Assembly: GCA_963668425.1 (NCBI GenBank)
Contig: OY764332.1
Span: forward strand, 359,504 to 423,503
Source: Minisyncoccota bacterium
GTDB lineage: Bacteria > Patescibacteriota > Minisyncoccia > Phycocordibacterales > JABAAK01
Reading direction: 5' to 3'
Length of the DNA stretch: 64,000 nt
Notes under the pieces: model-generated
The model's database searches: none
Told to the model about the DNA's origin: nothing
Seen by the model: the letters and a program-made list of their open reading frames with translations, nothing else
Made by a program: the position numbers and the translations under genes
Shown here: positions 2,900-38,063 of the stretch, one piece after another
Position numbering within the stretch: position 1 is the stretch's first letter
Layout: every line of letters starts with the position of its first letter

Positions 2900-5254
2900 A
2901 TGATTTTGTATATAGATACCCTTGCCCTACTGTACCGTGCGTATTATGCATTTCCTGATTTGCGGGCGTCTGATGGTACACCTGCAGGAGCGTTATTCGG
3001 ACTGACGAATACACTTTTTCGTGTTGTTGCTGAGATGGAGCCGGATCATATTGTTGCGTGTTTTGACAGACCAGAGGAAACTTTTCGGCAGCAGTTGCAC
3101 GCTGAGTATAAGGCGAATCGTGAGATGCCGGAGGAGGATATGATTATGCAGATTGATTTGTCGCGGGAAATGTTGCAGTCGTATGGTGTGCATACTGTTG
3201 AAAAAGCAGGATACGAAGCGGATGATTTATTAGGGACACTTGTTGTTATTGATGCAAAACGTGAAGAAGAAGCGGTTATTGTCTCTGGTGATGGGGATTT
3301 GTTGCAGTTGACAGTGTATCCGAATGTGCGTGTGTATTTACTTCGGAAAGGGATGAGTGACTTTGTGTTGTATGACGAGAAGGAGGTAGAGAAGAAGAAT
3401 GGGTATCCGGCGAGGTATGTTATTGATTATAAAGGACTTGCGGGAGATAGTTCTGATAATATCACTGGTGTTCCGGGTGTTGGTGATGTCTATGCGAAGC
3501 GACTCATTACTGCTTTTGGTGATCTTGATGCGATTTATAAGGCGGTTGACGCCGAGGTTTTAGAAGGTGAGGGGTTTACAAAGCGGATTGTTACCTTGCT
3601 TGAGCAAGGTCGTGACAGCGCGTTTGCCTCGCGTGAGTTGGCGACTATTCATACTGATGTGCCGATTATTGCTCCACACACCAAGGCAAAGAAATGGAAA
3701 GATTTCATAGTATATTCTGATGCTCAGAAGATGCTTGAACGATATGCTTTCACATCACTCTTGTCGCGCTTGAGTGCTATTACTGGAGGTGGTGATGGTG
3801 CTGGAGGCAATAATGGATCTTCTGACGTTGTTGACACACCTTCTGGCGCTGTTTTTGAGGATGCTGCTACTCGGGCGGTGTCTGTCGCATTGTGGGTACT
3901 TGATGCGACCAAAACAAATGCAAGTTTTGAAGATGTGTGTGTTTGTACTGGTCAGCGTTCTCCAGAGGATGCACTTGCGTTTATTGAGAAGGAGTTGAAG
4001 GCGAATAACTTGTTGTCGGTGTGGAGGGATATTGAGCAACCACTTCTTCCTGTTGTTGAGGAGATGGAGCGGATTGGAGTTTGTTTTGACTTACAGGGTG
4101 CGAAAAGATTGAGCGGTATGTATCAGAAAAAGATTGCATCTTTGACAAAAGAAATATACAACCTTGTTGGCAAAGAGTTTAATATTAGTTCTCCGAAGCA
4201 ATTAAGTGAGGTGTTGTATGGTGATCTTAATTTAAAGCCAAGGCGTGCATCAAAGACCGCTTCTGGAGGAAAGACGACCAAGGAATCAGTGTTGTTGCAA
4301 ATGGTTGATGATCATCCTGTTGTGTCGTTGGTGCTTGAATATAGACGTTATGAGAAATTGCGCTCCACCTATGTTGATGCATTGCCTTCGTTTGTTGCTG
4401 CTGATGGGCGAATACACACAACCTTACAACAGAATGGGACAGTGTCAGGACGGTTTTCTTCTCGAGATCCGAATTTGCAGAATATACCAGCTGGTGGTGA
4501 GGATGGTATCGCTATTCGCAATCTGTTTGTTGCTGCTGATGGGTGGGAGATGGTGGCAATTGATTATTCGCAGGTGGAGTTGCGGCTCGCCGCTATTTTG
4601 TCGCAAGATAAGGCACTATTGGATGTTTTTCGACGAGGTGTGGATGTTCATCGGGCAGTTGCTGCGCAGGTTTTTTCGGTTTCGCAGGATGCTGTAACAC
4701 CAGAGCAGCGTCATAATGCGAAGACAATTAATTTTGGGGTTCTTTATGGCATGGGGGCACAGTCACTGAGTCGTTCGTTGGCTGTCCCGTTGACTGAAGC
4801 AGATGCATTTCTCACTGACTACAAAAAAGCATTTCCGGCGTTGTTTGATTACCTTGATGGACTCAAAGGAGAAGCGTTGACTTCTGGTTTTGTGACCACT
4901 GCGTTTGGGCGGGTGCGACCGATTAGTGGTATCACCTCTTCACTTGCTTTTGTGCGGGCACAAGCAGAGCGGACTGCTGCAAATACAGTGATACAAGGTA
5001 CCGCCGCTGATATCACCAAGATTGCGATGGTTCGTGTTGATGCGATGTTGAAAGAGACAGGGTTGGTGGAAGATGTGCGCATGCTGTTGCAAATTCATGA
5101 TGAATTGTTGTTTGAGATTCGCCCTCGTGTTGCTGATCGGGCGATAGAGAAGATTGTAGAGGTGATGGAATCGGTGTATCCGGAGAATAAGAAGCCAATA
5201 CCACTGTTGGCAAGTGTTGGCAGAGGGAAGTCGTGGGGGATGTTGAAAGAGTGA
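2900..5254 (+). CDS. polA: DNA polymerase I. It has a 5'-3' exonuclease domain plus a family A polymerase domain, with only a ~100-aa vestige where the 3'-5' proofreading domain would be.
   Basis: N-terminal 5' nuclease region (LYRAYYAFP, GDSSDNITGVPGVG). Pol A motifs 'RDPNLQNIPAGGEDGIAIRNLF', 'RHNAKTINFGVLYGMG', 'QIHDELLFE'. Start moved to the internal ATG (MILYIDTLALL). Confidence 0.9.
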   Translation: MILYIDTLALLYRAYYAFPDLRASDGTPAGALFGLTNTLFRVVAEMEPDHIVACFDRPEETFRQQLHAEYKANREMPEEDMIMQIDLSREMLQSYGVHTVEKAGYEADDLLGTLVVIDAKREEEAVIVSGDGDLLQLTVYPNVRVYLLRKGMSDFVLYDEKEVEKKNGYPARYVIDYKGLAGDSSDNITGVPGVGDVYAKRLITAFGDLDAIYKAVDAEVLEGEGFTKRIVTLLEQGRDSAFASRELATIHTDVPIIAPHTKAKKWKDFIVYSDAQKMLERYAFTSLLSRLSAITGGGDGAGGNNGSSDVVDTPSGAVFEDAATRAVSVALWVLDATKTNASFEDVCVCTGQRSPEDALAFIEKELKANNLLSVWRDIEQPLLPVVEEMERIGVCFDLQGAKRLSGMYQKKIASLTKEIYNLVGKEFNISSPKQLSEVLYGDLNLKPRRASKTASGGKTTKESVLLQMVDDHPVVSLVLEYRRYEKLRSTYVDALPSFVAADGRIHTTLQQNGTVSGRFSSRDPNLQNIPAGGEDGIAIRNLFVAADGWEMVAIDYSQVELRLAAILSQDKALLDVFRRGVDVHRAVAAQVFSVSQDAVTPEQRHNAKTINFGVLYGMGAQSLSRSLAVPLTEADAFLTDYKKAFPALFDYLDGLKGEALTSGFVTTAFGRVRPISGITSSLAFVRAQAERTAANTVIQGTAADITKIAMVRVDAMLKETGLVEDVRMLLQIHDELLFEIRPRVADRAIEKIVEVMESVYPENKKPIPLLASVGRGKSWGMLKE

Positions 5255-28303: not shown

Positions 28304-30487
28304 CTATAGATTGGTGTTGCCGAAGGTGTCAGATCCTGCATTGGTGTTGTCATGGTCTCTTTCTATTAGAATTTCGCGAGGTTTTGAGCCGACTTGTGGA
28401 CCCACTATACCATTTTCTTCCAACATATCAATCAGGCGGGCGGCACGGGAGTAGCCAATCTTTAATTTTCGTTGCAAGAGGGAGGTGGATGCTTTTTGTG
28501 CTTCTATGACGATGCGTAGTGCTTCAGGGTAGTGCTCGTCTTCATCATCTCCTCCTCCAAAATCAGTACTTCCTGCGACTTCTTGATTTTTGGTGATGTC
28601 AATGATACCTTCGGCGACACCGTTGTGTTTTAATAGATATGCGACCACCTTTTTTACTTCTATGTCAGTTACGAATGCTGATTGTGCCCGAACTGGTTTT
28701 TTGTTTTCAGAAGAGGAGAATAGCAAATCACCCGCGCCGATGAGATTTTCTGCCCCTGTTGTGTCAAGGATGGTGCGGGAGTCAATGTTTGAAGTGACTT
28801 GTAGTGCGATTCGTACTGGGATGTTCGCCTTTACGACACCGGTGATGATGTTGACAGACGGTCGTTGTGTTGAGATGATGAGATGAATGCCGACAGCGCG
28901 ACTTTTTTGTGCTATTCGAACAATGTTTGCCTCTATTTCTCGCGGGAAACTTTGCATCAGGTCTGCTAACTCGTCTATGACTACCACTAGGCAGGGTAGA
29001 TATCCTTCCTCATCGTCAATTGCTTCGTTGTATGCGCTTATGTTTCGTGCGCGGTGTGCTTCTAATAACTCGTAACGGCGTTCCATCTCTGAAACAATCC
29101 ATACTAATGCTTGTAATGCCTTCTTCGGGTCGGTGATAGGGTCGGTGTAGAGGTGTGGCACTCCTTTGTACAGTGTTAATTCCACCCGTTTCGGATCAAT
29201 GAAAATAAAGCGAAGGTCTCGTGGACCGTAATTGAACAGGAGTGAGAGGATGAAGTTGTGGATGAGTACACTTTTGCCTGATCCAGTAGTGCCGGCGACT
29301 AAAATGTGTGGCATTTTTTCTAAACTTTTCGCGAATATTGAGCCGTTGATGGTTTTTCCTATTACCAGTCCTAGGGAGTTTTTGATGCGGGTAAATTCTT
29401 TTGACTTTAGGAGGGTTTGCAGTCCTACTGTCGCCCGAGTGGAGTTTGGCACCTCAATGCCGATGAGCGATTGTCCCGGTATTGGTGCTTCAATGCGGAT
29501 TGGGTGCGCGGCGAGCGCTAACTCAAGATTTTGTTGTAAGCTGGTGATGCGAGAGACGCGTACCCCTTCTGCCGGGCGCACTGAATAGCGAGTGAATGAT
29601 GGTCCGACAGTCACTTCTTCAACCTCTACGTGTATTTTGAAGTTTTGTAGTGTTCGTTGTATGGCGAGTGACTGTGCCTTGGTGTTGTTTGCCGCTTGCC
29701 CCTTCCCTTTTTCGGCATTCAGTAGTGATGAAGGAGGGGCGATGTACGGGGGCGTCTCATTATCTGTGTGGTATTCTTCTTCATCCTCGTCGTCATCATT
29801 GTCCTCTTGCTCTTCATCATCATCATATTCATCCTCGTCATATTCATCCTCTTCATCATCCTCTTCATCTTCATCTTCCTCCTCTTCCTCTTCTTCATCC
29901 TCATCATCATATTCCTCATCTTCATCTTCATCCTCATCATATTCATCTTCCATGAAATCAAGATCGTTCAGCCATTTCCAGATGGTGAATGGTGAGAAAA
30001 TCTTAAGGATGTAGAGTGCACTGAGTAGTGCCAATGGCATCAACACGTATGAGAAAACCCCTAACACATCCTGCAGTGTACTGAAGATTGTCGCGCCGAG
30101 CACTCCGCCGGCAATTTCATCGGATCCTGCAGCGAAGAGTACTGATGCACTTACGATTGCCAGTATGCCACCGAGGATGAGTCGGATGTATGATAGTGGT
30201 TCTTTGACAAAGAGAAGATAGACCCCTCCTGTGGTTAGTAAGGTGATGAGGACAATGAAGCTCCAGCCGAGCAGTGCAGGAGAGCCGTCGGGTTTCATAA
30301 AGAGGTATTCGCGTATCCATGTGCCGAATGAGCCGGCGGTATCAAAGATGATAAGTGTGCAGAATAGTGCCGCGAGGAGGCATACGATGCTCACAGAGAC
30401 CGCGCGAAACCGTGATGATGTGTTTGTATACCAGTCGGCAGATCGCCGCAGCAGAGAATCTTTTCCTTTTTTTTTCTTTCGTGTCAT
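28304..30487 (-). CDS. ftsK: DNA translocase FtsK/SpoIIIE with an extremely acidic (~65-aa poly-D/E) linker.
   Basis: N-terminal TM helices. Walker A 'GTTGSGKSVLIHNFI'. Gamma winged-helix 'LLQRKLKIGYSRAARLIDMLEENGIVG'. Linker 'DEYDEDEDEDEEYDDEDEEEEEEEDEDEEDDEEDEY...'. Confidence 0.85.
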   Translation of the reverse strand: MTRKKKKGKDSLLRRSADWYTNTSSRFRAVSVSIVCLLAALFCTLIIFDTAGSFGTWIREYLFMKPDGSPALLGWSFIVLITLLTTGGVYLLFVKEPLSYIRLILGGILAIVSASVLFAAGSDEIAGGVLGATIFSTLQDVLGVFSYVLMPLALLSALYILKIFSPFTIWKWLNDLDFMEDEYDEDEDEDEEYDDEDEEEEEEEDEDEEDDEEDEYDEDEYDDDEEQEDNDDDEDEEEYHTDNETPPYIAPPSSLLNAEKGKGQAANNTKAQSLAIQRTLQNFKIHVEVEEVTVGPSFTRYSVRPAEGVRVSRITSLQQNLELALAAHPIRIEAPIPGQSLIGIEVPNSTRATVGLQTLLKSKEFTRIKNSLGLVIGKTINGSIFAKSLEKMPHILVAGTTGSGKSVLIHNFILSLLFNYGPRDLRFIFIDPKRVELTLYKGVPHLYTDPITDPKKALQALVWIVSEMERRYELLEAHRARNISAYNEAIDDEEGYLPCLVVVIDELADLMQSFPREIEANIVRIAQKSRAVGIHLIISTQRPSVNIITGVVKANIPVRIALQVTSNIDSRTILDTTGAENLIGAGDLLFSSSENKKPVRAQSAFVTDIEVKKVVAYLLKHNGVAEGIIDITKNQEVAGSTDFGGGDDEDEHYPEALRIVIEAQKASTSLLQRKLKIGYSRAARLIDMLEENGIVGPQVGSKPREILIERDHDNTNAGSDTFGNTNL

Positions 30488-34537: not shown

Positions 34538-34571
34538 TGCAGTTCTGAGATTTGCCATCAACTATGGCAAT

Positions 34572-34728
34572 CAAAACCAAAAACCCGCTGAAAGAAAAGC
34601 GGGTTTTTGGTTTGTCTCGTAGGGGTTACTTGAGCAATCTATTGAACAGAGAATATTTGGATGGGATACTGTACTGCATTGCCCAACATCCTATGTGTTG
34701 GCAGAGAGTGCAAAACTGGTGCTTAGGT
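34572..34728. repeat. Direct repeat copy 1 (~150 bp incl. a 23-bp insertion). Contains a bidirectional terminator-like hairpin AAAAACCCGC-TGAAAGAA-AAGCGGGTTTTT followed by a conserved ~90-bp segment.
   Basis: Near-identical to 35744-35880, with about 5 substitutions in the shared ~130 bp. Confidence 0.85.
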
Positions 34729-35019
34729 TGCGTATTTTACAGTGTTGATTGCAATAACAATAAGTCCGGTAACCCCAGAAACCAATAGGATTGACTGAAT
34801 GGCAATATATAGCCAGCTCTTCTTGAGCGATTCTTTGATTTTTTGATCAATAGTATCACCAAACTTCCCACTATCTATGTGCTCTCCTATGATGGTTTTG
34901 ATTATTCTTTCAACCTCCTTGCTTTCAGAAAGCATGTGTAGCATGCGGCTTTCAAAGTCTTCATTAGCAACAAACGTGTCTCGTTGTTTATCTGTGATTG
35001 TTTCTTTATTTTTTGCCAT
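34723..35019 (-). CDS. Hypothetical small tail-anchored membrane protein (98 aa, single C-terminal TM).
   Basis: ORF with 'WLYIAIQSILLVSGVTGLIVIAI' C-terminal helix. A-rich codon usage unlike the flanking genes. Overlaps the upstream 73-aa ORF by 14 nt. Confidence 0.35.
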   Translation of the reverse strand: MAKNKETITDKQRDTFVANEDFESRMLHMLSESKEVERIIKTIIGEHIDSGKFGDTIDQKIKESLKKSWLYIAIQSILLVSGVTGLIVIAINTVKYAT

Positions 35020-35227
35020 CTTTCATTTCATCAGAGGGTGTGTATTTTTTGGAGCCAACAGATAACCCCTGTCCTTTTGACTGCTCTGCAACATCCAAGA
35101 GAAAGGCAATTGTGCTTGCATCTCCTTTCATTCCGTACTCTTTAGTGATGGTGCGAAGTTTGTCAAAGTGTCCGTTAGTGAATTCAACGTTAATCTTGTT
35201 GTCAGTGTTTTCTAAGTTGATAGCCAT
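35006..35227 (-). CDS. Hypothetical small soluble protein (73 aa), first gene of a two-gene minus-strand pair.
   Basis: ATG start. A -10-like CATACT lies immediately upstream, so the transcript may be leaderless. No recognised domain. Confidence 0.3.
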   Translation of the reverse strand: MAINLENTDNKINVEFTNGHFDKLRTITKEYGMKGDASTIAFLLDVAEQSKGQGLSVGSKKYTPSDEMKDGKK

Positions 35228-35340
35228 ACCAATAGTATGCCATGACTGCCTAATCTGTGCTATTCTGAAGACACAATAGTTTTCCCCACGTTAACCACAT
35301 TTTTTGTTGGTTGCCGTTGAAACTGAAAGCATTGAAATGA

Positions 35341-35358
35341 CTCCTCTACGGAGAGGAG
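35341..35358. promoter_or_regulatory. Perfect 18-bp palindrome CTCCTCT-ACGG-AGAGGAG in the divergent intergenic region between the small-gene pair and the STAS-like gene. Candidate operator or hairpin.
   Basis: 7-bp arms with a 4-bp spacer. Followed by a T-run and a TATACT -10-like box 7 nt before the ATG at 35391. Confidence 0.35.
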
Positions 35359-35390
35359 TAGGGGTATTTTTTCTTTTGTATACTAAATAT

Positions 35391-35723
35391 ATGAAAAAAG
35401 TGTTTCTTAAAGCATATGGCACTGTCTTGGTTGGTAGGAAAGATGGTACTGAGGCATTTGTTGCACTAGAGAGAAATATGCGGGACATGCCTGAGGGTGA
35501 GGTACTATTTTTTGATTTTTCAGACATTATCACCTTTGCACCAACATGGTGTGATGAGTTCTTTGGAGAAGCTACAATCAAATATCCTGGAAGAATAGTC
35601 ATTGATGAATCAATTGGCGAAGGATTAAGGAAGCCCTTTGAGGTTATAGCAGAAGCAAGAAAAATAGCATTCACTTTTGGATCGTTTGTTGAAACCAAGA
35701 ATGAGAAGATGAGCCAAGATTAA
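35391..35723 (+). CDS. Small STAS-like (DUF4325-like) domain protein (~110 aa).
   Basis: The pattern 'K.YGTVLVGRKDGTEAF..LE......EGEVLFFDFSDIITFAPTWCDEFFGE' resembles the DUF4325 STAS-like signature (..DF..V..isSSF.DEl.G.). Start moved to the internal ATG 'MKKVFLKAYG'. Confidence 0.35.
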   Translation: MKKVFLKAYGTVLVGRKDGTEAFVALERNMRDMPEGEVLFFDFSDIITFAPTWCDEFFGEATIKYPGRIVIDESIGEGLRKPFEVIAEARKIAFTFGSFVETKNEKMSQD

Positions 35724-35743
35724 GGAATGATACACCGGCAACC

Positions 35744-35880
35744 TAAAACTAAAAACCCGCTGAAAGAAAAGCGGGTTTTTGGTTTGTCTTCTATTGAACA
35801 GAGAATATTTGGATGGGATGCTGTACTGCATTGCCCAATATCCTATATGCTGGCAGAGAGTGCAAAACTGGTGTTTAGGT
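35744..35880. repeat. Direct repeat copy 2 (~130 bp); see copy 1.
   Basis: Shares the AAAAACCCGCTGAAAGAAAAGCGGGTTTTTGGTTTGTCT...GGCAGAGAGTGCAAAACTGGTG core. Confidence 0.85.
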
Positions 35881-35896
35881 GATATAGTAGAAGTAT

Positions 35897-36367
35897 ATGG
35901 GAGATATAGCATTTACTGTTAATGCACTAAATGTATTAATTGCGTGTGGAGGATTAATTGCACTCACTTTGGGGTGGTTATTCAAAATACACGGCAGGGT
36001 GTCAGAGCTTGAAGGCATAAACAAAGGTAAAGAATTAGCAAAAGAACAAAGCCCACTTACTCTCACAGATGCAGGCAATGCCTTATTGTGTGATAGTGGT
36101 GGTAAAAAATACATTGAAGATAACGAAAAATCATTGATAAAAAACTTTAATGACTTGGACAATGCTTTTGATATACAGGAGAAGGCAAAAGACATAATAC
36201 GGGAAAAGATGAAAGAGCCAAACGCTCTTAAAAATATCAAGATATACCTTTTTGATAATGGAAAGTCCGTTGAAGATATAGTTTTGGTGATGGGGTTGGA
36301 ATTGCGCGATGCTGTCTTTAAGCATAAAGGTATAGCAGTTGAGCAAGTGGACGCAGACAAAAGTTGA
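35897..36367 (+). CDS. Hypothetical membrane-anchored protein (N-terminal TM + ~120-aa soluble domain) immediately upstream of the MTase-HNH gene.
   Basis: 'VNALNVLIACGGLIALTLGWLF' helix. A-rich codon usage. No family recognised. Confidence 0.35.
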   Translation: MGDIAFTVNALNVLIACGGLIALTLGWLFKIHGRVSELEGINKGKELAKEQSPLTLTDAGNALLCDSGGKKYIEDNEKSLIKNFNDLDNAFDIQEKAKDIIREKMKEPNALKNIKIYLFDNGKSVEDIVLVMGLELRDAVFKHKGIAVEQVDADKS

Positions 36368-36463
36368 CCTTGCTCTATATAAGCAAAAGAACATACAAGT
36401 TTGAGTTCTTAACAATTCGCTCTTATAAACGCTGGCTGAATTGCCTGACTGCCATAGAGTAAA

Positions 36464-37915
36464 ATGCTTGTGGTTTATACTGTTTTCAAGATGTCTACTC
36501 CTAATTTCAAGCCGAATACACTCTTCACGAGAGATAATTTGTATATTTTGCGTGGCATGAACAGTGAGTGTGTTGACTTGATATATCTTGATCCGCCATT
36601 TAATTCAAAAAAAAACTATGTTGCACCTTTGCCTGTGAAGGATGAAGAAATACTTGCCTCATTCAAGGATGTATGGAAACTCATTGATATTGATGAAGCG
36701 TTGCATGAGGAATTGCAGGAGACTCAGCCATGTTTGTATGAGATTATTAAGGGTGTTGAAGCAGCACACTCCAAGGCGATGTTTTCATACTTGATATACA
36801 TGACCATGCGACTGGTTGAAATGCATCGTGTGCTAAAACCAACAGGAAGTATATTTCTGCACTGCGATCCAACGGCAAGCCACTACTTAAAAATAGTGAT
36901 GGATTGTATTTTTGGAAAGAGTAATTTTAGAAATGAGATTATTTGGTGTTACGGTGAAACGGCCAGAGGTGCAAAGGCAAAAGCCAGTCAGTTTGCACGA
37001 AATAATGATGTGATACTTTTTTACGGAAAAACAAGTCAACATCTCTTTAACAAAACATATTTTGAAAGGAAAATAAAGTTTGAGGGGTCAGGGTATCAGC
37101 GGGAGGATGATGGACGATGCTTTAGAACAGCACCACGAGGCGATTATACAGATGACAGTATTGAAAGGTTAAGAAGGGAAGGTAGGATTTATGAGACAAG
37201 AAACGGGACTATACGCATTAAATATCATGAAAAATGTGATGAAACCTTTGTGTATGAAAAAAAACTTTTTGGTAATGTTTGGTCAGATATACCTGATATG
37301 ATGCACGCAGAAGAGATAGAAAAAACCGGCTATTCAACTCAAAAGCCGTTAAAACTATTACAGCGAATCATCAATACAGGTAGCAAAAAAGGTGGTTGGG
37401 TACTTGACCCATTCTGTGGATGTGCAACTACCATGGTTGCCGCAGAAAAACTGGGGAGGAAGTGGGTTGGCATTGATGCCTCTCATTTTGCAAAATTTTT
37501 TGTTAAAAGCAGAATGGAAAAAGAATTGGAGAAAAAAATTCCTTTTATTTTTCTCAAGGATATATCTGGTAGGCAGTTCAGTGATGAAAAAGAATTGAGT
37601 GATTGGGAAAATAAGAAAAGGATGTATGAAGAGCAGGAAGGTGTATGCAATGGATGCGTTGGTCATTATCATGAAAAAGATATGACTATTGACCATATCA
37701 TACCAACATCAAAGGGCGGTCAAGACACACAAGATAACAAGCAATTACTTTGTTTTCACTGTAACACGACAAAGGGGACAGGAACAATGCCAACGCTATG
37801 GCAAAAACTTGCAAAAGGGCATGTATTGGAGTATCACGAAGCGGATAAACTCATACAAGAGCACAAAGACAGAAAAAAGAAACTTGAAAAAGAGTATGGA
37901 ACTAAAACACTATGA
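36464..37915 (+). CDS. DNA methyltransferase (beta-class N6-adenine/N4-cytosine type, motif IV before motif I) fused to a C-terminal HNH endonuclease domain.
   Basis: 'DLIYLDPPFNSKKNY' (DPPF catalytic motif) near the N-terminus and 'VLDPFCGCATTMVAAEKLGRKWVGID' (SAM-binding motif I) near residue 315. C-terminal 'CNGCVGHYHEKDMTIDHIIPTSKGGQDTQDNKQLLCFHCNTTKG' is a Zn-finger HNH motif. Confidence 0.8.
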   Translation: MLVVYTVFKMSTPNFKPNTLFTRDNLYILRGMNSECVDLIYLDPPFNSKKNYVAPLPVKDEEILASFKDVWKLIDIDEALHEELQETQPCLYEIIKGVEAAHSKAMFSYLIYMTMRLVEMHRVLKPTGSIFLHCDPTASHYLKIVMDCIFGKSNFRNEIIWCYGETARGAKAKASQFARNNDVILFYGKTSQHLFNKTYFERKIKFEGSGYQREDDGRCFRTAPRGDYTDDSIERLRREGRIYETRNGTIRIKYHEKCDETFVYEKKLFGNVWSDIPDMMHAEEIEKTGYSTQKPLKLLQRIINTGSKKGGWVLDPFCGCATTMVAAEKLGRKWVGIDASHFAKFFVKSRMEKELEKKIPFIFLKDISGRQFSDEKELSDWENKKRMYEEQEGVCNGCVGHYHEKDMTIDHIIPTSKGGQDTQDNKQLLCFHCNTTKGTGTMPTLWQKLAKGHVLEYHEADKLIQEHKDRKKKLEKEYGTKTL

Positions 37916-38063
37916 GCAAAAAAGCATTTCTAAAACTTTTGAACAAAACCCTTACACCCGTGAAAGCAAAACCTGAAACAAAGGAACAGAGGAAAGACGG
38001 TGGTTGTAATGTGTTTTTGCACAAGATGTGGACATCTGTGTAAGTGTGTTATACTTTTGGTAT

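What the first reader, a model, noticed from the sequence alone, without database searches (positions are those of the whole stretch)
36464..37915. Single-polypeptide DNA methyltransferase-HNH nuclease fusion with no separate restriction gene
The protein carries the DPPF catalytic motif, the DPFCGCATT SAM-binding motif and a zinc-coordinating HNH motif (all detailed in the feature entry). With motif IV preceding motif I this is a beta-class N6A/N4C methyltransferase. The nuclease and the methylase sit in one chain, so the protein could be a self-contained restriction-modification enzyme. Alternatively it could be a phage-type anti-restriction methylase that kept a homing nuclease. No separate REase ORF is nearby. 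The adjacent 156-aa membrane protein has no known role in RM systems.
Basis: partly seen in the sequence, partly recalled or inferred. Interest (0 to 1): 0.55.

Follow-up and report, generated by a model that had tools for sequence, protein, structure and literature searches.

The report
DNA methylase fused to HNH nuclease
This gene encodes one protein that joins a DNA adenine-type methylase to an intact HNH nuclease; it belongs to a large, widespread and apparently unstudied family that most likely acts as a one-protein restriction-modification system.

Summary
ORF 36464-37915 (+), 483 aa, is a beta-class N6_N4 methyltransferase (aa 37-341, E 1.7e-39) fused to a Cys4-zinc HNH nuclease (aa 395-439, E 4.6e-11). 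It is not an assembly artefact: 115 of the 120 best database homologs, and at least 593 loci in GTDB genomes, have the same architecture.

Both active sites are conserved, and 184 of 200 unique relatives keep the full HNH motif. The same methylase clade also carries T5orf172 (GIY-YIG-like) or Mrr-type nucleases in the HNH position. Tandem paralogs are 95-100% identical in the scaffold and HNH but only 14-34% identical in the target-recognition region. No partner restriction gene recurs. The only recurrent neighbour is an IS1595 transposase (10 of 79 loci), with terminal repeats enclosing both genes in one locus.

In the window the gene sits in a 3.4-kb low-GC island. A syntenic relative has toxin-antitoxin-type genes there and no methylase-HNH gene. 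The phage anti-restriction reading is not supported.

Best reading: a self-contained restriction-modification enzyme of an uncharacterised build (confidence 0.55). No nuclease or methylase activity was tested.

The parts
36464..37915 (+). Methyltransferase-HNH fusion gene, 483 aa (alternative start ATG at 36491)
   Evidence: ORF; domains; an identical protein is in the database and the architecture is shared by 115 of 120 top homologs.
36572..37486 (+). Beta-class N6/N4 DNA methyltransferase domain (aa 37-341)
   Evidence: PF01555, E 1.7e-39. Fold matches CcrM, EcoP15I Mod, RsrI and MboIIA.
36590..36601 (+). Motif IV DPPF (aa 43-46), catalytic; the Asp-type motif suggests N6-adenine
   Evidence: Read. 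D43 P44 P45 F46 are invariant in 46 homologs. N6A versus N4C is inferred from the DPPY/F versus SPPY/F rule (established knowledge), not tested.
36959..37318 (+). Target-recognition region (about aa 166-285) inserted between motifs IV and I
   Evidence: This is the variable block in alignment A1. It is only 14-34% identical between tandem paralogs that are otherwise 95-100% identical.
37406..37432 (+). Motif I DPFCGCATT (aa 315-323), SAM binding
   Evidence: Read. D315 F317 G319 C320 T322 are invariant.
37487..37633 (+). Linker between methyltransferase and HNH (aa 342-390)
   Evidence: family consensus HRTDIPxRTD...LPxY..HK..LYGxQEG. The model shows a helix, a low-confidence loop, then a helix.
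37634..37813 (+). HNH nuclease domain (aa 391-450): Cys4 zinc site C395/C398/C430/C433; catalytic D410-H411, N425, N434, K437
   Evidence: PF01844 E 4.6e-11. Residues conserved. The strict motif is intact in 184 of 200 unique relatives. Matches Gme HNH 4h9d.
37814..37912 (+). Lys-rich C-terminal helix (aa 451-483), present only in the closest relatives
35897..36367 (+). 156-aa protein with an N-terminal transmembrane helix and a helical bundle; function unknown; a possible accessory or island gene, not shown to be a partner
34600..38030 (.). Low-GC accessory island between the surface-protein gene and the ABC binding-protein gene
   Evidence: GC is 0.36-0.40 against 0.44-0.49 in the flanks. 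The syntenic relative L175 has different cargo in the same slot and no methyltransferase-HNH gene.

Best explanation
The gene encodes a stand-alone, single-polypeptide restriction-modification enzyme of an uncharacterised build. An N-terminal beta-class amino-methyltransferase, probably N6-adenine, has an inserted target-recognition region that reads a short DNA motif. A C-terminal HNH nuclease is tethered to it by a linker of about 50 residues.

Proposed working (inferred): the recognition region binds the motif. If the site is methylated or hemimethylated, the enzyme maintains methylation and does not cut. On fully unmethylated incoming DNA, the tethered HNH cuts at or near the site. Beta-class methyltransferases such as CcrM, MboIIA and RsrI work as dimers, so two HNH domains could make a double-strand break.

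The cassette is mobile and sits in a defence or accessory hotspot of a small, probably CPR-type genome.

Shown here: the architecture, conservation of both active sites, swapping of nuclease folds, diversification of the recognition region, absence of a partner gene, mobility, and the island context. Inferred: that cleavage happens, its dependence on methylation, and the dimer geometry.
For: (1) The fusion is conserved. 115 of the 120 best homologs carry PF01555 plus PF01844, and at least 593 GTDB loci encode relatives.

(2) Both catalytic centres are invariant or nearly so in 46 sequences of 42-77% identity. The strict HNH motif is intact in 184 of 200 unique proteins.

(3) The same methyltransferase clade carries nucleases of three unrelated folds at the same position: HNH, T5orf172/MUG113, and Mrr_cat with a conserved GxDG...VQVK motif. 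What is kept is a nuclease, not a particular fold.

(4) Tandem arrays show recognition-region exchange. Four copies in L014, three in L050 and two each in L075 and L042 are 90-100% identical in the C-terminal core, linker and nuclease. They are only 14-34% identical in the recognition region. This is the pattern known from restriction-modification specificity modules.

(5) No partner restriction gene recurs in 79 loci. The four-gene array in L014 is flanked by housekeeping genes.

(6) The contexts are typical of defence genes. In the window the gene is in a low-GC island, in a slot that holds SocA_Panacea antitoxin genes in syntenic L175. L087 has AbiTii and SocA_Panacea genes, and L002 has Mrr_cat and PDDEXK genes. 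Phage-borne Mrr-type relatives lie next to an integrase or CI repressor.

(7) One relative, P0086, has an N-terminal Cro/C1-type HTH, as controller domains do in Type II systems.

(8) Precedent: an engineered Eco29kI R-M fusion is fully functional (abstract of PMC3039593).
Against: No activity was measured; every functional step is inferred.

No characterised enzyme with this architecture was found in the searchable literature or the PDB, so there is no direct precedent. REBASE could not be queried.

One HNH domain per chain gives only a nick unless the protein dimerises.

A CPR sub-lineage (P0007, P0061, P0108, P0118) has replaced the catalytic His with Arg. The methyltransferase can therefore persist without an active nuclease.

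The census of C-terminal domains is biased towards sequences similar to the query. It used home-made HMMs and a simple ORF caller.
Confidence: 0.55

Rival explanations
1. The gene is a selfish stabilisation or homing cassette rather than host defence. The methyltransferase protects the carrier genome. The nuclease kills or cuts cells or alleles that lose or lack the cassette, promoting its retention and spread, including as cargo of IS1595 transposons.
For: An IS1595-family transposase lies directly upstream on the same strand in 10 of 79 loci. In L043, 24-bp terminal inverted repeats enclose the transposase plus the methyltransferase-HNH gene. The gene is solitary, sporadically distributed, and sits in a low-GC island that a close relative lacks.
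Against: Mechanistically this is the same enzyme as in the best explanation; only the beneficiary differs. Classic homing nucleases target one long site in an empty allele. Here the recognition region is hypervariable and arrays of several specificities coexist. No transposase or inverted repeat is present in the window.
Confidence: 0.15
2. The protein is an orphan methyltransferase whose HNH module is catalytically silent. The HNH serves as a zinc-finger DNA clamp or protein-interaction module, and the gene only methylates DNA for epigenetic marking or protection from others' restriction.
For: A sub-lineage has lost the catalytic His while keeping the fold and the methyltransferase (DH to DR in P0007, P0061, P0108, P0118). 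Pfam names a related PD-(D/E)XK family 'inactive REase' (NA-iREase1 hits). A fused active nuclease is a self-toxicity risk.
Against: D410-H411, N425, N434 and the Cys4 site are conserved in 184 of 200 relatives and in the window protein. Three different nuclease folds replace one another, each with its catalytic signature. That is hard to explain for a mere DNA clamp.
Confidence: 0.12
3. The protein is a methyl-directed nickase for repair or replication (MutH-like or Vsr-like logic). The HNH nicks the unmethylated strand near hemimethylated sites written by its own methyltransferase.
For: The closest solved HNH is a nicking endonuclease (4h9d). There is one HNH per chain. CPR genomes are reduced and could fuse such functions.
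Against: Hypervariable recognition regions, tandem arrays, transposon carriage, patchy distribution and absence from the syntenic relative do not fit a housekeeping repair function.
Confidence: 0.05
4. The gene is a phage-derived anti-restriction methylase that retained a homing or packaging HNH nuclease.
For: The methyltransferase core is common in phages: 147 INPHARED records and 319 IMG/VR stretches match. The HNH resembles phage HNH families in PHROGs.
Against: There are no phage genes in the locus. No phage record covers 80% or more of the protein. 75 of 78 viral relatives carry an Mrr-type domain and only 3 carry HNH. The phage copies sit in lysogeny modules, not packaging modules.
Confidence: 0.04
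5. The fusion is a sequencing or assembly frameshift artefact joining two genes.
For: None found.
Against: The same single-ORF architecture occurs in hundreds of independent assemblies and phyla. The linker is conserved.
Confidence: 0.01

Closest known systems
Type IIC/IIG/IIL single-polypeptide restriction-modification enzymes (MmeI, BpuSI, Eco57I; also Type ISP LlaGI and mycobacteriophage Panchino gp28)
   Same: Nuclease and methyltransferase are in one chain. One recognition module presumably serves both activities. The gene is stand-alone with no partner. The recognition module is swappable.
   Different: Those enzymes have an N-terminal PD-(D/E)XK or Mrr nuclease, a gamma-class methyltransferase and a C-terminal recognition domain. 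Panchino gp28 has Type I-like domains. Here the order is reversed, the methyltransferase is beta-class with an internal recognition region, and the nuclease is HNH. No sequence or fold relation exists beyond the Rossmann core.
Beta-class Type II and orphan amino-methyltransferases (M.MboIIA, M.RsrI, CcrM, M.BceJIV)
   Same: Same Pfam family, same motif order (IV, recognition region, I) and same fold.
   Different: None of them carries a nuclease domain. Their restriction partners, where they exist, are separate genes.
Type III Mod subunits (EcoP15I, Mbo45V)
   Same: The best overall structural match to the query (TM-score 0.48, 4zcf_A). They are beta-class with a central recognition region that is swapped between alleles.
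   Different: Type III systems need a separate Res helicase-nuclease. No res gene is near the window gene or recurs in 79 loci.
Small zinc-binding HNH nicking endonucleases (Gme HNH 4h9d, HK97 gp74-type phage HNH); HNH domains of IscB and Cas9
   Same: Same beta-beta-alpha-metal core with a Cys4 zinc site and DH...N...N catalytic residues.
   Different: Those are free-standing, terminase-associated or RNA-guided. Here the domain is fused to a sequence-specific methyltransferase.
Engineered RM.Eco29kI fusion (PMC3039593)
   Same: Shows that a fused restriction-modification polypeptide can keep both activities.
   Different: It is artificial, and the methyltransferase belongs to a different class (a C5-cytosine enzyme, from my own knowledge).
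Transporter IS (tIS) of the IS1595 family
   Same: In 10 of 79 relatives the gene is cargo directly downstream of an IS1595 transposase, inside the terminal repeats in L043. tIS are described for the IS1595 family.
   Different: Not the case in the window: no transposase and no inverted repeat. The passenger cited for IS1595 in the review read was a transcription regulator.

Membership tests
Beta-class N6/N4 DNA amino-methyltransferase (PF01555) | Significant match to the family model above the curated cut-off | tested here: met
   136.5 bits against a cut-off of 26.7, E 1.7e-39.
Beta-class N6/N4 DNA amino-methyltransferase (PF01555) | Motif order IV (DPPY/F), then recognition region, then I (FxGxG-like) | tested here: met
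   DPPF at aa 43-46, variable region at about aa 166-285, DPFCGCATT at aa 315-323.
Beta-class N6/N4 DNA amino-methyltransferase (PF01555) | Fold of solved beta-class enzymes | tested here: met
   Foldseek E 6e-15 to 1e-12 against CcrM, EcoP15I Mod, M.BceJIV, RsrI and MboIIA.
Beta-class N6/N4 DNA amino-methyltransferase (PF01555) | Methyl transfer to DNA at a defined motif | not testable with these tools
   Needs expression plus SMRT or nanopore methylome.
HNH (beta-beta-alpha-metal) nuclease | Family model match plus catalytic His, Asn and metal ligand, with the Cys4 zinc site | tested here: met
   PF01844 at 43.1 bits against 21.4. C395, C398, D410-H411, N425, C430, C433 and N434 are present and conserved.
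HNH (beta-beta-alpha-metal) nuclease | Metal-dependent DNA cleavage | not testable with these tools
   Biochemistry is required.
Single-polypeptide (Type IIC) restriction-modification enzyme, functional definition | Restriction and modification domains in one polypeptide | tested here: met
Single-polypeptide (Type IIC) restriction-modification enzyme, functional definition | Sequence-specific cleavage that is blocked by the enzyme's own methylation | not testable with these tools
   Only indirect support: recognition-region diversification and nuclease-fold swapping.
MmeI/Eco57I/BpuSI-type Type IIG/IIL family (homology) | N-terminal PD-(D/E)XK nuclease, gamma-class methyltransferase and C-terminal recognition domain | tested here: not met
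   The methyltransferase is beta-class, the nuclease is a C-terminal HNH, and no such enzyme appears among the PDB or Pfam matches.
Type III restriction-modification system | Mod gene paired with a res gene (helicase plus nuclease) | tested here: not met
   No res-like ORF in 28-44 kb of the window. No recurrent helicase neighbour in 79 loci.
Classical two-gene Type II system | Separate restriction endonuclease gene adjacent to the methyltransferase | tested here: not met
   Neighbouring ORFs have no hits. No conserved neighbour family occurs across 79 loci except an IS1595 transposase. A novel restriction enzyme among the small ORFs cannot be formally excluded.
Prophage or phage-borne methylase with packaging or homing HNH | Phage structural, terminase or integrase genes in the neighbourhood | tested here: not met
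   Neighbours are FtsK, a surface protein, an ABC binding protein, UvrA and EF-Tu. PHROGs finds nothing for the neighbours.
IS1595 transporter IS cargo | IS1595 transposase adjacent and terminal inverted repeats enclosing both genes | tested here: not met
   Absent in the window. Met in relatives: L043 clearly, L071 probably.

The most novel reading that the evidence does not exclude
Beta-class methyltransferases with plug-in C-terminal nucleases (HNH, T5orf172/GIY-YIG-like, Mrr) form a large, so far uncharacterised class of one-protein restriction-modification enzymes. They diversify specificity by exchanging the internal recognition cassette within tandem gene arrays. They travel as cargo of IS1595 transposons and, in the Mrr form, of temperate phages. 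They are a major defence type in uncultivated lineages such as sponge symbionts and CPR bacteria.
Probability: 0.4. Interest if true: 0.75.

Novelty: new variant of a known kind. Interest (0 to 1): 0.6.

Why it matters
If the HNH domain really restricts unmethylated DNA, this is a compact single-chain restriction-modification design of about 400-480 aa. It is built from parts other than those of all characterised fused enzymes.

The naturally modular recognition cassette could provide new specificities or programmable nickases. The family would help explain how genomes that often lack CRISPR (CPR bacteria) or face heavy phage load (sponge symbionts) defend themselves with very little coding space. 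It would also add restriction-modification genes to the cargo of IS1595 transporter IS.

The family is almost absent from cultured-organism plasmids and sequenced phages. That may be why it has escaped biochemical study.

Tried and rejected
- Literature: eight full-text searches were run. Those aimed at a methyltransferase-HNH fusion, and reading of reviews, found no characterised fusion of this kind. REBASE itself could not be queried.
- Panchino gp28, the 'single-subunit restriction system', has a Type I-like domain set. It is only a functional analogue. The original paper was not available.
The CPR assignment is therefore inferred from the 696-kb contig, the Kaiserbacteria homolog and the gene content.
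- phmmer of the linker plus HNH alone against 1.84 billion representatives gave 298 hits at E <= 1e-10. Most were generic small HNH proteins, so this did not define the family.
- The 150-nt direct repeat upstream is not in Rfam, not elsewhere in the window, not in the metagenome collection and not in other loci. Only its hairpin part is shared with L175.
- A weak similarity of about 28 nt between the two junctions of the methyltransferase-HNH insertion is too poor to call a target duplication.
- No IS1595 inverted-repeat motif was found in the window.
- The promoter and terminator scan did not resolve whether the 156-aa ORF and the fusion gene are co-transcribed.
Full report
**1. The observation**

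The ORF is at 36464-37915 on the + strand and encodes 483 aa. Pfam places an N6_N4_Mtase domain at aa 37-341 (E 1.7e-39). It places an HNH domain at aa 395-439 (E 4.6e-11), with supporting HNH_5 and Endonuclease_7 hits.

DPPF is at aa 43-46. DPFCGCATT is at aa 315-323. The zinc-type HNH core is C395xxC398 ... D410-H411 ... N425 ... C430xxC433-N434 ... K437. Motif IV comes before motif I with a variable block between them, which is the beta-class permutation.

NCBIfam gives only sub-threshold matches: adenine methyltransferase models for the N-terminal part and the HNH domains of Cas9d and IscB for the C-terminal part. PADLOC sees only Type II, Type III and orphan methyltransferase models.

An AlphaFold model built on 46 homologs is confident (pLDDT 86, pTM 0.79). 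Foldseek against the PDB returns beta-class methyltransferases for the first ~340 residues: CcrM, EcoP15I Mod, M.BceJIV, RsrI and MboIIA. It returns the Gme HNH nicking endonuclease 4h9d for the C-terminus. No solved chain contains both parts.

The true start codon may be the ATG at 36491, where most homologs begin.

**2. Not an artefact, and not rare**

The database holds the identical protein on a 696,550-bp contig. Homologs of 77% and 65% identity (473 and 483 aa) have the same architecture; the second is named as Candidatus Kaiserbacteria. Of the 120 best hits, 115 carry PF01555 plus PF01844.

The 80 best come mostly from MAGs of Poribacteria, Dehalococcoidia and other Chloroflexota, Acidobacteriota, Latescibacterota and Binatia. 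They also include various Proteobacteria and even a Nitrosopumilus archaeon. From my own knowledge these are largely lineages typical of sponge symbionts.

In contrast, the fused form is almost absent where cultured biology is sampled. None of 147 matching INPHARED phage records covers 80% or more of the protein. Only 1 of 2033 matching plasmid records does.

**3. Both activities look selected**

In an alignment of 46 proteins (42-77% identical to the window protein), several residues are invariant. These are D43 P44 P45 F46, D315 F317 G319 C320 T322, and the HNH residues C395, D410, N425, C430 and C433. C398, H411, N434 and K437 are conserved in at least 90%.

A regular-expression census of 200 unique family members finds the strict motif C..C...DH...N...C..CN..K in 184. 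Sixteen lack it. Some are truncated or carry another C-terminal domain. A CPR sub-lineage (P0007, P0061, P0108, P0118) has changed DH to DR. This shows the methyltransferase can outlive the nuclease in some lineages. The window protein has the intact set.

**4. The C-terminal nuclease is interchangeable**

Members of the same methyltransferase clade (about 35-58% identity over aa 4-371) carry other domains at the position of the HNH. Some carry a T5orf172/MUG113 domain, a GIY-YIG-like fold: P0033, P0058, both L075 copies, L081, L082 and L085. Others carry an Mrr_cat PD-(D/E)XK domain: Streptomyces phage Werner gp48, Marinitoga phage MPV1_55, L084 and L038.

I built HMMs from these examples. 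Among the GTDB loci, 75 C-termini classify as HNH, 5 as T5orf172, 5 as Mrr-type and 2 as none. Among IMG/VR viral contigs the split is 75 Mrr-type to 3 HNH. The Mrr-type domains keep the GxDG...VQVK signature.

This census is biased towards sequences similar to the query, and it rests on a simple ORF caller. The qualitative point stands: what is conserved is 'a nuclease', not a particular fold. The phage copies lie beside a serine integrase or a CI-like repressor. From my own knowledge, that is where prophages usually keep defence genes.

**5. Specificity diversifies on a constant scaffold**

Several genomes carry two to four copies, and some are tandem:
- L014 (Flammeovirgaceae): four genes in a row.
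- L050: three genes.
- L075: two, of the T5orf172 type.
- L042: two.

Within these sets the C-terminal methyltransferase core, the linker and the nuclease are 90-100% identical. The region corresponding to aa 166-285 of the window protein is only 14-34% identical. This cassette-like exchange of the recognition region is the pattern known from Type I HsdS, Type III Mod alleles and the MmeI family (established knowledge). It is expected for enzymes under pressure to vary their DNA target. The L014 array is flanked only by housekeeping genes.

**6. No partner, but a vehicle**

I called ORFs in 80 GTDB loci; 79 of them held a match to the window protein. I then clustered all neighbours of those 79. 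The only family that recurs is an IS1595-type transposase (PF12762 plus PF12760). It lies directly upstream on the same strand in 10 loci.

In L043, a 24-bp terminal inverted repeat (GGGGAATTATATCGAAAAGTAAAC and its complement, 23 of 24 matching) encloses the transposase and the methyltransferase-HNH gene. L071 shows the same repeat core. Such 'transporter IS' are described for the IS1595 family. The window has neither a transposase nor the repeat motif. One relative, P0086, carries an N-terminal Cro/C1-type HTH, reminiscent of controller domains of Type II systems.

**7. The local context**

The gene lies in a 3.4-kb low-GC island, about 34.6-38.0 kb, with GC 0.36-0.40 against 0.44-0.49 in the flanks. 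The island sits between a 1242-aa surface-protein gene and an ABC binding-protein gene. UvrA, EF-Tu and ribosomal-protein genes follow.

A metagenomic contig from a close relative, L175, has the same flanks: UvrA 91%, EF-Tu 92% and binding protein 77% identical. It has different cargo in the slot. That cargo includes homologs of the 73-aa and 139-aa ORFs, two homologs of the 156-aa ORF and two SocA_Panacea antitoxin-domain genes. There is no methyltransferase-HNH gene. The gene is therefore an acquired insert in an accessory or defence hotspot, between the 156-aa ORF and the binding-protein gene.

Close CPR homologs sit in unrelated places. L001 is among housekeeping genes. L002 is next to Mrr_cat and PDDEXK genes. 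L003 and L004 are behind a D12 methyltransferase. L087 has a second copy plus AbiTii and SocA_Panacea genes.

**8. The 156-aa neighbour**

Eight contexts are known:
- Three are adjacent to methyltransferase-HNH genes (window, L087, L002).
- One abuts a HinfI-type system (L171).
- One is two genes from an EcoRI-type system (L088).
- Three are elsewhere.

Two copies also sit in the L175 hotspot without any restriction-modification gene. I therefore read it as an island-associated gene rather than a required partner, but the link is worth recording.

**9. Interpretation**

The best-supported reading is a self-contained restriction-modification enzyme. One recognition region directs both methylation and HNH cleavage of unmethylated DNA. 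Dimerisation, as in solved beta-class enzymes, would supply two nuclease domains. I give this 0.55.

Because no activity was measured, the alternatives remain open:
- A selfish addiction or homing cassette. This is the same chemistry with a different beneficiary (0.15).
- An orphan methyltransferase with a silent HNH (0.12).
- A methyl-directed repair nickase (0.05).
- A phage anti-restriction methylase (0.04).
- An assembly artefact (0.01).

**10. Comparison with known systems, and novelty**

The protein would work like Type IIC/IIG/IIL enzymes such as MmeI. It is not a member of those families, because the methyltransferase class, the domain order and the nuclease fold all differ. It is a member of the beta-class methyltransferase family and of the HNH superfamily.

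It is neither a Type III system (no res gene) nor a two-gene Type II system (no partner). I found no published characterisation of this architecture. REBASE could not be checked, and the family is plainly visible in databases as 'DNA methyltransferase'.

I therefore rate it a new variant of a known kind, with interest 0.6.

Noticed in passing
window 34573-34728 and 35745-35880: A direct repeat of about 140-155 nt (95-98% identical, with a 20-nt indel). Each copy starts with a perfect 16-bp-stem bidirectional terminator hairpin. Copy 1 follows the surface-protein gene and copy 2 precedes the 156-aa ORF. Three small ORFs without family hits lie between them. The repeat is not in Rfam, not elsewhere in the window and not in other loci. 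Only the hairpin is shared with the syntenic relative L175.
   Followed up: partly
window 35897-36367; L087 5001-5618; L002 9768-10277; L171 1966-2433; L088 5001-5624: A small family (8 clusters, all from metagenome assemblies, probably CPR) of membrane-anchored helical proteins. It lies beside or within two genes of restriction-modification modules in 5 of 8 known contexts: three methyltransferase-HNH genes, one HinfI-type system and one EcoRI-type system. No fold or family match.
   Followed up: partly
L014 6950-12870; L050 27-3738; L075 5566-8371: Tandem arrays of two to four methyltransferase-nuclease genes. They are nearly identical (95-100%) in the C-terminal core, linker and nuclease but 14-34% identical in the recognition region. 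This suggests cassette exchange or gene conversion.
   Followed up: yes
L043 5968-8420 (also L071, L035, L062, L064, L067, L069, L081, L085, L007): IS1595-family transposase directly upstream of the methyltransferase-nuclease gene. In L043, 24-bp terminal inverted repeats enclose both genes, giving a 'transporter IS' with a putative restriction-modification gene as cargo.
   Followed up: partly
L005 4010-5653 (Streptomyces phage Werner gp48); L006 2716-4272 (Marinitoga phage MPV1_55); 75 IMG/VR loci L093-L169: Phage-borne relatives of the same methyltransferase carry a C-terminal Mrr_cat-type PD-(D/E)XK domain with a conserved GxDG...VQVK motif. They sit next to an integrase or CI repressor. 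They are annotated only as 'DNA methyltransferase'.
   Followed up: partly
P0007, P0061, P0108, P0118 (CPR homologs; P0118 shares an 847-kb contig with P0004 and P0009): A sub-lineage has replaced the catalytic His of the HNH (DH to DR) while keeping the zinc site and the methyltransferase. This is probably nuclease-dead. Three paralogs occur in one small CPR genome.
   Followed up: no
L175 3000-9900 against window 34540-38030: The slot between the surface-protein gene and the ABC binding-protein/UvrA genes is a variable hotspot. The relative holds two SocA_Panacea antitoxin-domain genes, a 352-aa unknown ORF and two 156-aa-like genes in place of the methyltransferase-HNH gene.
   Followed up: partly
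window 28304-30487 (-): An FtsK-like protein with a run of about 70 residues made almost entirely of Asp and Glu between the membrane part and the motor domain.
   Followed up: no
window 1-64000: GC skew is positive in every 2-kb bin, so the cumulative skew rises monotonically. This fits one replichore with strong strand bias; no skew turning point lies in the window.
   Followed up: no
window 35304-35723; L170 about 4024-4275; L175 4975-5385: The 139-aa ORF of the island has homologs in L175 (64% aa identity) and near the 156-aa homolog in L170. In L170 the overlapping called gene has a weak DUF4325 hit. These small island genes travel together in varying combinations.
   Followed up: no
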